Origin: Eledone cirrhosa
Lineage: Eukaryota
Length of the DNA: 64,000 bases
NCBI GenBank assembly: GCA_964016885.1
Contig: OZ024746.1
Location: 37,076,001-37,140,000, forward strand
Reading direction: 5' to 3'
Shown here: piece after piece, positions 5,070-9,948 of the stretch
How the letters are laid out: every line of letters starts with the position of its first letter
Position numbering within the stretch: position 1 is the stretch's first letter
Translations under genes and position numbers: made by a program
Notes under the pieces: model-generated
The model's database searches: none
Told to the model about the DNA's origin: nothing
Seen by the model: only the letters and a program-made list of their open reading frames with translations

Positions 5070-5940
5070 CAGATAAAGAATCTTGCTAAACAAATTCAGA
5101 AACGAAATATCGTAAGCCTTAGCCAGGCTAACAAGATACTGAAAACCAGCATGTTCTGTTGTCTACGAAAAACCATAACATCTCGACAACTACGCTTCAT
5201 AATTAAATTGAAGTGAAAGCAATGGTGCGTGTGTTTCTTATTGGCAACATGACCCTCCCAAAGTATAACAATATCGGTTTCAACACACGATTTCAGATAA
5301 AGAATCTTGCTAAACAAATTCAGAAACGAAATATCGTAAGCCTTAGCCAGGCTAACAAGATACTGAAAACCACCATGTTCTGTTGTCTACGAAAAACCAT
5401 AACATCTCGACAACTACGCTTCATAATTAAATTGAAGTGAAAGCAATGGTGCGTGTGTTTCTTATTGGCAACATGACCCTCCCAAAGTATAACAATATCG
5501 GTTTCAACACACGATTTCAGATAAAGAATCTTGCTAAACAAATTCAGAAACGAAATATCGTAAGCCTTAGCCAGGCTAACAAGATACTGAAAACCACCAT
5601 GTTCTGTTGTCTACGAAAAACCATAACATCTCGAAAACTACGCTTCATAATTAAATTGAAGTGAAAGCAACTGGTGCGTGTGTTTCTTATTGGCAACATG
5701 ACCCTCCCAAAGTATAACAATATCGGTTTCAACACACGATTTCAGATAAAGAATCTTGCTAAACAAATTCAGAAACGAAATATCGTAAGCCTTAGCCAGG
5801 CTAACAAGATACTGAAAACCACCATGTTCTGTTGTCTACGAAAAACCATAACATCTCGACAACTACGCTTCATAATTAAATTGAAGTGAAAGCAACTGGT
5901 GCGTGTGTTTCTTATTGGCAACATGACCCTCCCAAAGTAT

Positions 5941-5947
<7 letters not shown>
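5067..5947 (+). repeat. Tandem array of ~3.9 near-identical 224-225 bp units embedded in (TA)n
   Basis: TTTCAGATAAAGAATC recurs at 5067, 5291, 5515 and 5740; (TA)n flanks both sides. Confidence 0.97.
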
Positions 5948-6000
<53 letters not shown>

Positions 6001-6147
6001 TATTTTCCGTTGTGTTGTAATATAAATATTACACACAGTAGATTATCAGCTCACGTAGAGTTTGCTCGACGGTTCCAGTTGTAGTTCCAAAAGTAATCCG
6101 GAGAAAAATAGAAAGATTTTAATGGATACAGTTTAGTTGAAAGGAAT

Positions 6148-6268
6148 TTATTGACACGTGTTTCTATAACAGTTACATAACCTGAAAACAGCTGCTATCT
6201 ACAAAGTTTTACTTATGCAGACATTCAATATTTCAATGTTATTATTTACTGTCATTTCATCAGAATAA
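6148..6268 (-). ncRNA. Type I hammerhead ribozyme with extended stem II
   Basis: Minus strand: TTATT-CTGATGA-A-ATGACAGT...ACTGTTAT-A-GAAA-C-ACGT-G-TC-AATAA. Core intact, GUC site, palindromic stem III. Confidence 0.8.
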
Positions 6269-6909: not shown

Positions 6910-7176
6910 CACTTTAATACATGAATACACTTACATCTAACTATACACATCAAACATATATATATATTTACTTATTTATATACATTTTCACATATATATA
7001 CATACTTATGGACGTTTTTAGACACATTCATTATCGCATATTTGCACCTATTCTCATCAGCATATCTTTCCATTTTTAGTGTGGTAATTTAAGGTTATTA
7101 ATATATGTTGAGAAGAGATTCTTTTTATATTTTTCTAACTAGATTAAGGTTTATATAGTTGGGGGATGTCCCTCTT

Positions 7177-7290
7177 TTATGAAATATTCGGCTTGTAGTG
7201 GGGAAAAAGGGTTTTAGTTCTGTGACGGCAGAATAATGTTCGTTCAATTCTGTTATTCAGCAGTTTCTTCTTGTGTGTGATTATGTAATA
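7177..7290 (-). pseudogene. C-terminal fragment of a PLE GIY-YIG endonuclease
   Basis: Manual translation YYIITHKKKLLNNRIERTLFCRHRTKTLFPHYKPNIS* is homologous to LLNNRIERSLYCNHRLKSTFSHYK at ~40170-40245. Confidence 0.8.
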
Positions 7291-7552
7291 ATCTTAAGTC
7301 TGAATGTTAATTAAGTGCAAACACAAAACCAACCACGGATATCTTTACTATCTCTAATCCTTCTATAGATTTAGAAAAATAACCAATAATATATTCTATA
7401 AAAAATGTCAAAACAACAGATGGGAATCTAATTACTCACTGCCACCAAGAATTCTCACTGCTATCGAAAAACCACTCCTTCAACTATTCTTCTAACAACT
7501 TCACCCCTCCCGCCTAATATTCTCTATAAAAACTAAATAGGTCCTCAGTAAT

Positions 7553-7675
7553 ATAATTCTGATGAAATGACAGTAAATAATAACATTGAAATATTGAATG
7601 TCTGCATAAGTAAAACTTTGTAGATAGCAGCTGTTTTCAGGTTATGTAACTGTTATAGAAACACGTGTCAATAAA
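7553..7675 (+). ncRNA. Type I hammerhead ribozyme with extended stem II (inverted copy)
   Basis: CTGATGA at 7559-7565, GAAA at 7658-7661, then CACGTG-TC. Stem I has one mismatch relative to the 6148 copy. Confidence 0.75.
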
Positions 7676-7706
7676 TTCCTTTCAATTAAACTGTATCCAT
7701 TCAAAT

Positions 7707-7788
<82 letters not shown>

Positions 7789-7912
7789 AGGAGTTGAGTT
7801 TTATTGTAGTACAATAAAGCAATGCAGATATCGGATAAGAAGCACTCTACTGTTTGTAGGACTGGAGTATACATAATATATAAGAACAAAAGATGGTTAA
7901 AAGAGTTCCATG

Positions 7913-7983
7913 TATTTTATTATGCGCATTTCAAAAACAAATATCATCATGCAATAGTATTTGTGTTTTCATCAGATAAAATA
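7913..7983 (-). ncRNA. Type I minimal hammerhead ribozyme
   Basis: Reverse complement of the 8104-8174 motif; core intact. Confidence 0.82.
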
Positions 7984-8103
7984 GGAAGACATGATATGAA
8001 GGTTAAAAAACACTTGTGGATAGTGCAGTTTTAAATCAACATATATGTTGATTTAAAACTGCACTATCCACAAGTGTTTTTTAACCTTCATATCATGTCT
8101 TCC

Positions 8104-8174
8104 TATTTTATCTGATGAAAACACATATATTATTGCATGATGATATTTGTTTTTGAAATGCGCATAATAAAATA
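8104..8174 (+). ncRNA. Type I minimal hammerhead ribozyme
   Basis: TATTTTAT-CTGATGA-AAACACATAT...ATATTTGTTTTT-GAAA-T-GCGC-A-TA-ATAAAATA: 8 bp stem I, intact core, palindromic TGCGCA stem III, AUA cleavage triplet at 8164-8166. Confidence 0.85.
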
Positions 8175-9439
8175 CATGGAACGCTTTTAACCATCTTTTG
8201 TTCTTATATATTATATATATATATATACATATACATACACACATATATAGAAAGAGTGAGAAAGAACAAGAGATGCATATATATTAATTAAAGAAGCTGC
8301 GTAATTAAGTATATATCTCTAGTCTACTGATACGATCTTCTATTTTTAAAGAAATAATTAATTTCTTCCCAAACGGTACAGCTAAATCCTTGGCGCGTGC
8401 TAACTCGTGTATTGCGTTTCTAATTTTAGTTTCCAAGGCAACGAACAACCCATATAATTTTTGAAAATTCTGCTCAGGTGTGGGAATATGGGAGTGAGAA
8501 TACGAATATGCGCGACTCGCTGTAAAGTAACAGAACTGCCTACTTTCTTTCGGCGTAGCCGAAAGTGTGTGCGTGTGATACATCACACTTAACACAATTT
8601 TATGATCAAGAGAGGAAGCAAAATGACGACAATTGTAAATTCTACGAATATTAGGAGTCTCTAAGTCGGTTCGCTGTCGTGAATGATGATATATTTATTT
8701 CAGAATTGCTTACAATCTCATTATTCCTTTCTATATTCTCATTTGATTTATACAGAGTAGTGACCAGCTTCTTAATTAATTTAATTAGTTCAAAATAATG
8801 CCTACAAATACTGTCACGTTCTGCTTAAATAAACTAAAATTGAAACTTCCTTGATTTTATATGCAAAATTGCTAAAATCCATTGTTCTTGTTGACTCGGT
8901 TTTGTAAGTGCAATCTGTCTCAAATAAAGCAACTTTCCAACCACCTTTGTCACACGGCTGCTATAACACCCATCTGCAAACGGAAATGAACTACGATCTT
9001 TTCATATTTCTCTCAGAGATTTCACGCGAACTTCGAAAATGCGAAACATATTACATTTGAATTCTATGAAAAATTACCACGTCAGGTGGTAAATATTCTA
9101 CCACATTAATGACATGACTATGCAAACATTTACATAAAAGTATAAAGTTCTTGTTCTTAATTGTATCGTGTATTATATATATCCTTTATTGGAACGTGGG
9201 TACCCCACCACACACACACACTACCGAACACACACCACACACACCCACGACAACATTATGCCTACGATAGTGCATAACAAACAAATAAGTTTTAGTACAA
9301 CAATCAGCAAAAGATTCAATTATAATTCTAACATAAGAAAAATAAAACGCACACACACACACACCCACGAAACAACAAAAAAACAGCAATCACAATACCT
9401 CGAAGAAATAAATGCTTTTTCGAGAAAACTAAAAAGATA

Positions 9440-9620
9440 GATCATTTTCATGACAGGCATGTATAACAGGTACTAACATGAGAGTTCCGGTTTTGGGTCT
9501 AGGAGTTTTATGGCTTCCTGCTAGCCTCAATGATAGTTGTATGCCTGCAATAAGTCTAGCTAAGTTCTCTGGCCCCCACCGACCAGAGAGAAGGAAATCC
9601 TCACGTATACTCTCACATGC
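9440..9620 (-). mobile_element. Possible very decayed RTE-like 3' fragment
   Basis: Minus-strand PENLARLIAG and KTPRPKT resemble the RTE C-termini at ~3300 and ~31400. Confidence 0.35.
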
Positions 9621-9948
9621 ACACACATCCAATAGATCAAGATGATGACTACAATTCAATTCCCATTGACATTTCTTCAACTCAGTATAAATATTCCGAC
9701 ACCATTACAACACCGTAATTTTTCCTAACAATCCCCATATGAATTCTGAAACATACACACACACACCAAACACACACTTGCATAGTCACACAACCTCACA
9801 CGCAACCACTCCAGGGCTTCCTGATGATTTCTCCCGAATGAAACAGTTCTAGTTCCTGTAGACGCAATTTCTATATTAAATAATTATACTCTGCTATGTA
9901 TTGAGTACCTTACATACTGTGATTATCGCCGATCGAACCCGGGATAAC

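What the first reader, a model, noticed from the sequence alone, without database searches (positions are those of the whole stretch)
7873..8214. 340 bp palindrome with an intact hammerhead on each strand
Seen: two ~168 bp arms joined by ATATAT, each with a complete type I HHR (8 bp stem I, TGCGCA palindrome, AUA site). The arms differ at a few positions, which argues against a pure read-foldback artefact. A transcript from either strand would hold one HHR plus its antisense and fold as a long rod, sequestering the ribozyme and forming a dsRNA substrate. The both-polarity HHR, rod-like layout is reminiscent of viroid-like RNAs. The simpler reading is a minimal PLE insertion (terminal repeat plus inverted terminal repeat). 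Whether such palindromes move as units is open.
Basis: partly seen in the sequence, partly recalled or inferred. Interest (0 to 1): 0.72.

Follow-up and report, generated by a model that had tools for sequence, protein, structure and literature searches.

The report
Head-to-head Penelope retroelement ribozyme stub
This mirror-image stretch is a short stub of a known ribozyme-carrying jumping gene (a Penelope-like retrotransposon) sitting in a TA repeat, one of at least 1,844 such stubs in this genome, and it was likely made when the element's enzyme copied the first part of its RNA onto both ends of one DNA cut; for this class of element it is ordinary.

Summary
The palindrome is real: arms 7868-8043 and 8044-8219, 176 nt, 4 mismatches. 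Each arm carries a type I hammerhead motif readable by eye, but no Rfam model finds it.

It is not a free-standing or viroid-like entity. The arm is the untranslated leader of a ~3.7-kb Penelope-like element (PLE). Its ORF has a reverse-transcriptase fold and Hydra-clade motifs.

This is the PLE "tail". The true unit is an asymmetric ~430-bp palindrome inside a (TA)n run.

The same design recurs:
- 1,844 loci have a head-to-head junction at this point, and 187 have the identical centre.
- 37 of 40 sampled loci have one arm ending at 259 (with tail) and the other at 176.
- Junction types recur on many haplotypes that also occur in long coding copies. The stubs are therefore most likely made anew at each insertion and not copied as units.

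Best reading: reverse transcription primed from both strands of one cut, up to a discrete RNA 5' end.

Inverted pLTRs, one-sided tails and (TA)n targets are in print (PMC3846280, PMC8557442, PMC11167929). This scan has already described such stubs on other DNA of this genome. Ordinary, low interest.

The parts
7710..7785 (.). Left target flank: a (TA)36 run, then TGTG at the junction with the tail
   Evidence: Sequence. TA run 7710-7781. All 40 long-arm ends in sampled stubs and the window abut a TA run.
7786..7867 (-). The PLE 'tail' (arm positions 177-258), present on the left arm only. In full elements it runs on natively into the 5' UTR and ORF. It contains a predicted 8-bp hairpin, UUUAUUGUA...UACAAUAAA.
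   Evidence: blastn of the L033 unit against the window: unit 1-258 matches 8043-7786 at 95.7%. Native continuation seen in L033 6091-6173. Fold.
7868..8043 (-). Left arm: the leader of the PLE pseudo-LTR (arm positions 176-1), read on the - strand
7913..7983 (-). Hammerhead motif of the left arm (mirror image of 8104-8174). Predicted cut between 7921 and 7920 on the - strand. Two substitutions in the helix II 5' strand (7961, 7957).
   Evidence: Motif scan, mismatches and fold
8041..8046 (.). Centre of symmetry, ATATAT. Both arms start at A(-1)/T(1) of the element and are joined with a 2-nt AT overlap (junction type B).
   Evidence: The exact 28-nt centre is found at 187 loci. Any junction within 0-12 nt of this point occurs at 1,844 loci.
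8044..8214 (+). Right arm: the same leader (arm positions 1-171), without a tail. It ends in the element's own UAUAUAUUAU tract, where the TA run takes over.
   Evidence: Native G at arm 172 is A here and in the short arms of other stubs.
8104..8174 (+). Hammerhead motif of the right arm: stem I 8104-8111/8167-8174, CUGAUGA 8112-8118, helix II 8119-8155, GAAA 8156-8159, AUGCGCAU 8159-8166. Predicted cut after 8166.
   Evidence: Cleavage was not tested.
8215..8250 (.). Right target flank: TA/CA microsatellite

Best explanation
The palindrome is a stub insertion of a Penelope-like retrotransposon (Hydra-clade type) in a (TA)n microsatellite, and it was likely formed by reverse transcription primed from both strands of one cut.

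Shown:
- Each arm is the 5' leader of the element's pseudo-LTR, including its hammerhead motif.
- One arm ends at the element's internal UA tract (arm 171-176).
- The other arm carries the 82-nt 'tail' and ends at arm 258/259.
- Both arms start at the same base of the element.
- The same design recurs at more than a thousand loci.

Inferred:
- The element's mRNA starts at A(-1), a capped transcription start in the pseudo-LTR.
- The element's RT/GIY-YIG protein cuts both strands of a TA repeat.
- Each 3' end primes cDNA synthesis at an internal start site just downstream of the leader: one at the UA tract, probably by pairing with the TA primer, and one at the end of the tail.
- Both cDNAs run off the RNA 5' end only 171-259 nt away.
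- Their self-complementary ...ATAT-3' ends anneal and are filled in, which gives a head-to-head palindrome.

On this reading the hammerhead is carried along as part of the leader. Nothing here shows that it acts in this copy. In a transcript spanning both arms it would be buried in a ~170-bp duplex.
For: (1) The arm belongs to a longer element.
- 13 of the 19 loci whose junctions were printed (of the 30 fetched) continue upstream of arm position 1 with homologous sequence.
- L033 shows the whole unit: arm, tail, ORF, 946-nt 3' region, arm.

(2) The ORF is of PLE type.
- The AF2 model (mean pLDDT 74) gives 34 PDB matches at E<=0.001. All those listed are reverse transcriptases: DRT9, retrons, HIV RT, TERT, R2, group II intron RT and L1 ORF2p.
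- The nearest ESM-Atlas clusters carry HTH_animal + RVT_1 + GIY-YIG.
- GIY-YIG matches 2 of 20 homologues, best E 1.7e-4.
- The Hydra-clade motifs named in PMC8557442 section 11 are present: CxCX5C (CNCPVKNKC), DKT, and CxxC beside E/N.

(3) The design is stereotyped.
- 1,844 loci have a head-to-head junction within 0-12 nt of arm position 1; the reversed-pattern control gives 0.
- The same kind of count gives only 37, 3 and 10 loci at three other places in the arm.
- 37 of 40 loci sampled along contig 1 have arms 1-259 plus 1-176.
- All are flanked by TA runs.

(4) The 5' end is discrete. 15 of 41 parsed junctions carry a G directly before A(-1), where the native element has C. This is as expected for a copied cap (recalled from L1 literature). 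The native context TTTTCATATG is Inr-like.

(5) The short arm ends at arm 171, inside UAUAUAUUAU, and native G172 is replaced by the A of the TA run.

(6) The arms of one stub share a haplotype and rare variants: 97.6% identity within stubs against 94.2% between loci, with 30 shared rare variants.

(7) Literature read here.
- PMC11167929, main text: a PLE protein cuts and extends both target strands; RT starts at two adjacent internal RNA sites; the tail is the stretch between them; uncleaved RNA is the main template.
- PMC8557442, passages and section 11: an inverted 5'-truncated copy, a tail often at one end only, and (TA)n targets.
- PMC3846280, passages: an inverted pLTR, a one-sided 31-bp tail, Inr/TATA in the pLTR, and palindromes at inverted junctions.
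Against: - No RNA data. No run on record as RNA holds the stretch, so the transcription start at A(-1) and the cap are inferred from DNA junctions only. Non-templated addition by the RT could also give the extra G.
[quoted passage not shown] The strict 'one site per strand' pairing seen here (37 of 40) is therefore not explained by published data.
- 3 of 40 stubs break the rule. L044 and L045 have a second arm of only ~17-20 nt ending in non-TA DNA, and L042 has a 41-nt arm. This fits fold-back synthesis or later deletion better than a second defined RT start.
- One long copy (L033) ends at about arm 237, so there are more than two 3' ends.
- The query ORF itself has no Pfam match and no PDB sequence match. 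The GIY-YIG domain rests on motifs, 2 of 20 homologues and Atlas neighbours, not on a fold match.
- The loci with long copies were picked by likeness to the window's arm, so they are a biased sample.
Confidence: 0.78

Rival explanations
1. Self-priming (snap-back). One cDNA is made from the tail-end start site up to the RNA 5' end. Its 3' end then folds back or switches onto the cDNA itself and copies it back. The copy is joined to the other side of the TA target where it reaches the element's TA tract (arm 160-176).
For: - Self-priming was proposed for the palindromes at inverted Penelope junctions in PMC3846280 (discussion passage).
- It explains 'one long arm, one short arm' without needing two coupled start sites.
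- It fits L044 and L045, where the second arm is only ~17-20 nt, and the multi-switch junctions of L027 and L007.
Against: - In several stubs the short (tail-less) arm holds 5'-terminal bases that the long arm lacks. Examples are L019, L029, L016 and L025, where the long arm is truncated at 7-21 and the short arm is complete, often with an extra G. A fold-back copy of the long arm cannot contain those bases.
- The commonest junction has no loop at all (type A, 22 of the first 50 listed).
- Both-strand cleavage and extension has been shown in vitro for a PLE (PMC11167929).
Confidence: 0.15
2. The ~430-bp palindrome is itself a mobile non-autonomous unit (fold-back, MITE-like or retrozyme-like) that is copied as a whole.
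For: - High copy number with fixed outer ends.
- 187 loci share the identical centre.
- Three common stub haplotypes (CAGCTCGATTCA, CAACTCGATTCA, CCGCCCGATTCT; 21 of 101 arms) were not seen among the 20 long-copy arms sampled.
Against: - Each junction type occurs on many haplotypes, and each haplotype occurs with several junction types. Type A alone spans at least 8 haplotypes in 17 loci.
- Five of the eight commonest stub haplotypes are also found in long coding copies.
- The outer ends are the same 3' ends used by long copies.
- Long inverted pairs with other inversion points are common.
- There are no tandem head-to-tail units here as in retrozymes.
Confidence: 0.04
3. A viroid-like or otherwise functional rod-shaped RNA with a working hammerhead in both polarities.
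For: - The whole palindrome would fold as a rod (-262.5 kcal/mol).
- The core positions of the motif vary less among 127 arms (1.1%) than the rest of the arm (4.9%).
Against: - Both polarities give nearly the same RNA because the DNA is a palindrome, so 'a hammerhead on each strand' carries no extra information.
- In the rod the ribozyme core is fully paired.
- Junctions at the predicted cleavage site are not enriched: about 9 loci, against 3 and 10 at control sites.
- The sequence is the leader of a coding retrotransposon.
- The low variation of the 13 core positions reflects the master copies and is not evidence of selection on stubs.
Confidence: 0.01

Closest known systems
Insertions of endonuclease-bearing Penelope-like elements with an inverted 5'-truncated pseudo-LTR and a one-sided tail (PMC3846280; PMC8557442; PMC11167929)
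   Same: - Head-to-head inverted pseudo-LTR copies, with a palindrome or microhomology at the junction.
- An extension ('tail') at one end only.
- Two alternative 3' ends.
- A (TA)n target.
- A hammerhead in the pseudo-LTR close to the RT start sites.
- An Inr-like start in the pseudo-LTR.
   Different: - The tail is 82-83 nt here, against 30-40 bp in print.
- Both copies are cut down to the leader only, so no ORF lies between them.
- The pairing of one tailed and one tail-less arm is nearly obligatory (37 of 40). The papers say 'often' or 'optionally'.
Hydra clade of C-terminal EN+ PLEs (Craig et al. 2021, PMC8557442, section 11)
   Same: - CxCX5C linker, DKT motif, and CxxC near the conserved E/N of the endonuclease.
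- Insertion into (TA)n.
- A hammerhead is present.
- Mollusc hosts are listed.
   Different: - The unit is ~3.7 kb here; the paper says generally under 3 kb.
- No phylogeny was made here.
- Absence of the CCHH motif was not rigorously checked.
Minimal / dimer-dependent type I hammerheads of metazoan PLEs (Cervera and de la Pena 2014, PMC4209133)
   Same: - Type I topology and a large helix II.
- A very short helix III (2 bp) with a palindromic loop. Two copies can pair AUGCGCAU with AUGCGCAU.
   Different: - Stem I is 8 bp, longer than the 4-6 bp described.
- The 10.1-11.1 pair is A-U, where the paper stresses a highly conserved G-C.
- Helix II is unusually long (~17 bp).
- Activity is untested.
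Animal non-LTR retrozymes (bioRxiv 10.64898/2026.07.22.740005, abstract read)
   Same: Non-coding, hammerhead-bearing sequence related to PLE pseudo-LTRs and presumably dependent on PLE proteins.
   Different: Retrozymes are head-to-tail tandem units thought to pass through circular RNA. This is a single inverted pair with ends at RT start sites and at an RNA 5' end, and with no tandem unit.
L1 twin priming (recalled; Ostertag and Kazazian 2001, not read here)
   Same: Both strands of the target prime reverse transcription, and the second primer anneals internally by microhomology. The result is an inverted 5' part.
   Different: In L1 the two segments are different, non-overlapping parts of one RNA. 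Here both arms copy the same leader, so the product is a true palindrome.

Membership tests
Hammerhead ribozyme, type I | Conserved core: CUGAUGA, GAAA, and a U-H cleavage dinucleotide in the right order | tested here: met
   8112-8118 CUGAUGA, 8156-8159 GAAA, U8165-A8166 then the cut; mirrored on the - strand
Hammerhead ribozyme, type I | Helices I and II close the core, with helix I open-ended | tested here: met
   The RNAfold MFE and centroid both give the 8-bp stem I and a long helix II. The energy is not better than shuffles (z 0.21).
Hammerhead ribozyme, type I | G10.1-C11.1 pair at the base of helix II (stressed as highly conserved in PMC4209133) | tested here: not met
   The sequence reads CUGAUGA-AAAC...GUUUUU-GAAA, so the closing pair is A-U
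Hammerhead ribozyme, type I | Match to a curated covariance model (Rfam hammerhead families) | tested here: not met
   0 matches at gathering score in the window. None of the 73 matches at E<=10 in 7800-8300 is a hammerhead family.
Hammerhead ribozyme, type I | Self-cleavage at the predicted site | not testable with these tools
   No RNA data. Genomic junctions at the site are not enriched: about 9 loci, against 3 and 10 at controls.
PLE-type dimeric hammerhead (PMC4209133) | Very short helix III with a palindromic loop that allows an intermolecular helix III | tested here: met
   AUGCGCAU is self-complementary. RNAcofold of two copies pairs it between molecules: -30.7 kcal/mol, against 2 x -8.2 for monomers.
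Penelope-like element (EN+) | Reverse transcriptase domain | tested here: met
   AF2 model and Foldseek: 34 PDB matches at E<=0.001, and all those listed are RTs, including TERT. The YRDDG motif is present. The Pfam model RVT_1 does not match the query and matches 1 of 20 homologues.
Penelope-like element (EN+) | GIY-YIG endonuclease fused to the RT | tested here: inconclusive
   The C-terminal region has IYECKV...YFGST...R..H motifs and a beta-beta-alpha-alpha-beta-alpha prediction. Pfam GIY-YIG matches 2 of 20 homologues, best E 1.7e-4, below cut-off for one tested alone. Atlas neighbour clusters carry GIY-YIG in 21-47% of members. No fold match was sought for the domain alone.
Penelope-like element (EN+) | Pseudo-LTR organisation with an inverted 5'-truncated copy and a one-sided tail | tested here: met
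   L033 and L032. 37 of 40 stubs have a tail on one arm only.
Hydra clade of PLEs (PMC8557442 section 11) | CxCX5C linker, DKT in place of DKG, (TA)n insertion | tested here: met
   CNCPVKNKC and HSDKTNN in the L033 frames. TA flanks. The features were taken from the paper's section 11. No tree was made.
Hydra clade of PLEs (PMC8557442 section 11) | Absence of the CCHH motif inside the endonuclease | not tested
   Only read by eye; no alignment with reference PLE endonucleases was made.
Non-LTR retrozyme | Head-to-tail tandem repeats of a hammerhead unit | tested here: not met
   Apart from TA-rich low-complexity and one weak 21-nt two-copy match (D1, D2), the repeat finder finds only the single inverted pair in 7000-9200. 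blastn of the unit finds no further copy in the window.
MITE / fold-back DNA transposon | Terminal inverted repeats with symmetric ends, unrelated to a retroelement | tested here: not met
   The arms are the leader of a coding retroelement. The ends are asymmetric, 259 against 176. The inner junction varies.

The most novel reading that the evidence does not exclude
Every integration of this Penelope-like element uses two different reverse-transcription start sites in a fixed one-per-strand manner on a capped leader RNA. If so, the thousands of leader-only palindromic stubs are complete molecular fossils of the double-strand integration reaction. They would settle how PLEs build their inverted repeats and one-sided tails: by two-strand priming and not by self-priming.
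Probability: 0.4. Interest if true: 0.5.

Novelty: new member of a known kind. Interest (0 to 1): 0.28.

Why it matters
In itself it matters little. It is a dead, non-coding stub of an abundant retrotransposon family, and its layout (inverted pseudo-LTR, one-sided tail, TA-repeat target, hammerhead) is already described for Penelope-like elements.

Its value is as one of more than a thousand near-identical products of one reaction:
- The near-obligatory pairing of a tailed with a tail-less arm constrains models of PLE integration, which is still poorly understood.
- The shared inner end with an extra G in about a third of junctions constrains those models too.
- The lack of junctions at the ribozyme's cut site agrees with the in vitro finding that uncleaved RNA is the template.

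For annotation, such stubs should be masked as PLE fragments. They should not be called fold-back elements, microRNA precursors (they score against many miRNA hairpin models) or viroid-like sequences.

Tried and rejected
- Rfam: 0 matches at gathering score in the window. At E<=10 on 7800-8300 there are only generic hairpin and miRNA-like matches, all below gathering, and no hammerhead or HDV-like family.
- Pfam on the ORF at E<=0.01 and at E<=10: nothing. On four homologues: one weak GIY-YIG match.
- PDB by sequence: nothing meaningful. With a 20-sequence profile: only a weak retron-type RT match at the YxDD motif, E 0.24.
- RNA evidence: no RNA holder is listed for the stretch.
- Laid contigs of X1, X2, X4 and X5 are short unitigs of a high-copy repeat. 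A few cross the centre, none spans the whole stretch, and the TA flank is uncovered. They cannot confirm this particular locus.
- MITE / DNA-transposon reading: considered after the first copy search and dropped once copies were seen to continue into a coding element.
- A second ribozyme producing the 5' end at A(-1): by eye there is no CUGAUGA or GAAA upstream, and there is no HDV-like Rfam match.
- Capture of ribozyme-cleaved RNA: symmetric junctions near arm 124 are not above control sites. Instead, 20 of 37 loci, plus 8 variants, are centred on the native 12-nt palindrome TTATGCGCATAA.
- First fold search attempt: the machine was busy. It was repeated successfully.
Full report
OBSERVATION

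The repeat finder reports a single long inverted repeat with arms 7868-8043 and 8044-8219. The arms are 176 nt, 98% complementary, and have nothing between them. The arms differ at four positions: arm positions 83, 87, 140 and 172, counting 8044 as position 1.

In the right arm the + strand reads as follows:
- UAUUUUAU (8104-8111)
- CUGAUGA (8112-8118)
- a long hairpin
- GAAA (8156-8159)
- UGCGCA
- UA, then AUAAAAUA (8167-8174)

The mirror image lies on the - strand at 7913-7983.

- RNAfold recovers stem I and helix II, but the fold is no better than shuffles (-8.2 kcal/mol, z 0.21).
- Two copies can pair their AUGCGCAU stretches with each other (-30.7 kcal/mol, against 2 x -8.2 for monomers). 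This matches the dimer-dependent design described for PLE hammerheads (PMC4209133, passages read).
- Against a clean call: no Rfam hammerhead model matches, either at gathering score or among 73 matches with E<=10. The pair next to the core is A-U, where that paper stresses G-C.

WHAT THE ARM IS

The arm has at least 58 matches in the window's own 3.0-Gb genome, which is a lower bound. In 13 of the 19 loci whose junctions I printed, the sequence upstream of arm position 1 is homologous between loci...aatctaaaactacttttca|TATGTTGATTT. Homology runs on for up to 2.9 kb.

Locus L033 shows a whole unit:
- an inverted partial copy
- a forward copy that passes through the arm (5915-6090) and an 83-nt stretch (6091-6173)
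- an ORF region (to 8637)
- a 946-nt 3' region
- the arm again (9584-9761)

The 562-aa frame holds YRDDG, and at its C-terminus CNCPVKNKC...IYECKV...YFGST...CNLCLNEK. The frame before it holds HSDKTNN.

Evidence on the protein:
- Pfam and PDB sequence searches of this AT-rich, N-rich protein find nothing.
- It has 57 homologues at E<=0.001. The best named ones are from octopod cephalopods.
- Its nearest ESM-Atlas clusters carry HTH_animal with RVT_1 and GIY-YIG.
- A 20-sequence alignment gives an AF2 model with mean pLDDT 74. Its 34 PDB matches at E<=0.001 are, as listed, all reverse transcriptases, including telomerase, R2 and L1 ORF2p.
- GIY-YIG is matched by 2 of 20 homologues and RVT_1 by 1 of 20.
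- The CxCX5C linker, DKT motif, CxxC near E/N, (TA)n targeting and presence of a hammerhead are the features Craig et al. give for the Hydra clade of PLEs (PMC8557442 section 11, read).

I therefore file the parent as a Penelope-like element of Hydra type. The endonuclease domain counts as likely and not proven, and no tree was made.

THE REAL UNIT IS ASYMMETRIC

blastn of the L033 unit against the window shows the left arm running on to 7786, which is arm position 258. The extra 82 nt (7786-7867) is the stretch that in full elements follows the arm and leads into the ORF. It corresponds to the PLE "tail".

The right arm has no tail. Native G172 is an A there, so the element really ends at arm 171, inside its own UAUAUAUUAU tract, where the TA repeat takes over. 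Both outer ends abut TA or CA microsatellite.

HOW COMMON, AND HOW UNIFORM

- An exact pattern for a head-to-head junction with 0-12 nt between the two arm starts finds 1,844 loci. The reversed control finds 0.
- The native read-through at the same place occurs 4,609 times.
- By my hand count, the first 50 listed junctions are: 22 CAACATATGTTG, 6 CAACATATATGTTG (the window's type), 8 with one extra G/C, 2 with one on each side, and 12 others.
- The window's exact 28-nt centre occurs at 187 loci.
- The same kind of pattern placed elsewhere in the arm gives 37 loci around arm 112-124, 3 around arm 41 and 10 around arm 141. Arm position 1 is therefore a hot spot by two orders of magnitude.

I fetched the first 40 junction loci along contig 1, unselected for likeness to the window.
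- 37 have one arm 1-259 and the other 1-176.
- The exceptions are L042 (41 + 176), L044 and L045 (259 plus a second arm of about 17-20 nt).
- All 40 long-arm ends (39 sampled loci plus the window) abut a TA run. So do all but about three short-arm ends.
- Of the 30 loci, all 12 palindromic ones also had one long and one short arm.

ARE THE STUBS COPIED AS UNITS?

- In 32 stubs with both arms nearly full length, the arms of one stub are 97.6% identical on average. The window's are 97.7%, and none is identical. Arms of different loci are 94.2% identical.
- 30 rare variants are shared at mirror positions, and 102 are in one arm only.
- At 12 polymorphic sites the two arms of a stub almost always share a haplotype.
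- Each junction type occurs on many haplotypes. Type A spans at least 8 haplotypes in 17 loci, and the same haplotype occurs with several junction types.
- Five of the eight commonest stub haplotypes also occur among 20 arms of long coding copies. Three do not (21 of 101 stub arms). The long copies are few, and they were picked by likeness to the window.

This fits stubs made anew at each insertion from one template. It does not fit a palindromic master that propagates.

THE INNER END

15 of 41 parsed junctions carry a G (C on the other strand) directly before A(-1), where the native element has C. The native context TTTTCATATG resembles an initiator.

I infer that the element's RNA begins at A(-1), and that the extra G is a copied cap. 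The cap interpretation is recalled from work on L1 and was not read here. PMC3846280 describes Inr- and TATA-like motifs in rotifer Penelope pseudo-LTRs. There is no RNA evidence here, because no RNA holder is listed.

MECHANISM

Frangieh et al. (PMC11167929, main text read) showed in vitro the following:
- A PLE protein cuts and extends both strands of an AT-rich target.
- RT starts at two adjacent internal sites of the RNA.
- The genomic tail is the stretch between those two sites.
- Uncleaved RNA is the main template.

Put together with the data above, the most likely course is:
1. Both 3' ends of a cut in (TA)n prime cDNA synthesis on the leader of the element's RNA. One primes at the UA tract, which can pair with a TA primer. 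The other primes at the end of the tail.
2. Both cDNAs reach the RNA 5' end after 171-259 nt.
3. Their ...ATAT-3' ends, being self-complementary, anneal with a 4-nt overlap (type A) or a 2-nt overlap (type B, the window), or are joined with a few extra bases.
4. Fill-in gives the palindrome.

Internal initiation just downstream of the leader explains why leader-only stubs are so many.

What this does not explain is why the two start sites are used one per strand. The in vitro work saw no strand difference. Two active sites of a dimeric protein on one RNA is my speculation.

The main rival is self-priming of a single cDNA (PMC3846280 discussion). It fits L044 and L045. It fails for stubs in which the tail-less arm holds 5' bases that the tailed arm lacks (L016, L019, L025, L029).

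THE RIBOZYME

Core positions vary less among 127 arms (1.1%) than the rest of the arm (4.9%). With 13 positions and dead copies, that reflects the masters and not selection.

Symmetric junctions at the predicted cut site are not enriched: about 9 of the 37 loci, against 3 and 10 at control sites. Instead, 20 of the 37 (plus 8 variants) are centred on the native 12-nt palindrome TTATGCGCATAA. This again points to annealing of self-complementary cDNA ends.

In a transcript of the whole stub the core would be fully paired in a rod of -262.5 kcal/mol.

COMPARISON AND NOVELTY

The following are in print (PMC3846280, PMC8557442, PMC4209133, PMC11167929):
- head-to-head inverted pseudo-LTRs with palindromic junctions
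- a tail at one end only
- (TA)n targets
- pseudo-LTR hammerheads that need dimers

My searches for "Penelope-like" with "twin priming" (3 papers, none about PLE insertion structure by title or abstract) and for Penelope / retrotransposon / head-to-head / palindrom (2 papers) found no description of leader-only stubs with a fixed tailed/tail-less pairing. Most subscription papers are not in the library. Supplements of the papers were not opened.

Earlier notes of this scan on other DNA of the same genome already describe such stubs, their Hydra-clade parent and the two fixed ends. I took the Hydra lead from there and checked it against the paper and the ORF.

VERDICT

This is an ordinary PLE stub, a new member of a known kind. 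The viroid-like reading is rejected.

Noticed in passing
G000, 37 loci listed (e.g. C3:206988548-206988583): A second, much weaker hot spot for head-to-head junctions lies exactly on the native 12-nt palindrome TTATGCGCATAA of the hammerhead's helix III. 20 of 37 loci are exact and 8 more are variants. This fits joining by annealing of self-complementary cDNA ends.
   Followed up: partly
L033:9800-9830 (G000:C28): A long forward copy ends at about arm 237, inside the predicted tail hairpin, and goes straight into (TA)n. This is a third 3' end besides 171-176 and 259.
   Followed up: no
L027 and L007 junctions: These junctions hold several short back-and-forth repeats of the first 5-20 bases of the arm, as if the polymerase had switched template more than once at the RNA 5' end.
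   Followed up: no
L033:6949-8637 ORF, residues about 343-419: A long asparagine/serine/threonine-rich, low-confidence linker lies between the RT and endonuclease parts (pLDDT about 30). It recalls the N-rich inserts reported in rotifer Penelope ORFs (PMC3846280).
   Followed up: no
window 1-64000: The window holds 61 runs of (TA)8 or longer, about one per kb, at 35% G+C. That is a very dense supply of the target this element family uses. No other copy of this family lies in the window.
   Followed up: partly
window 7942-8145: The palindrome scores against many microRNA-precursor covariance models (MIR5048, mir-548, MIR2606 and others, E down to 3.5e-16), though all are below gathering score. 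Such stubs could be mis-annotated as miRNA genes.
   Followed up: no
run X5 (organism B): Contigs from a run with a different species label hold parts of the arm at 95% identity or more, including the native continuation upstream of arm position 1. The family is therefore shared with at least one related species.
   Followed up: no
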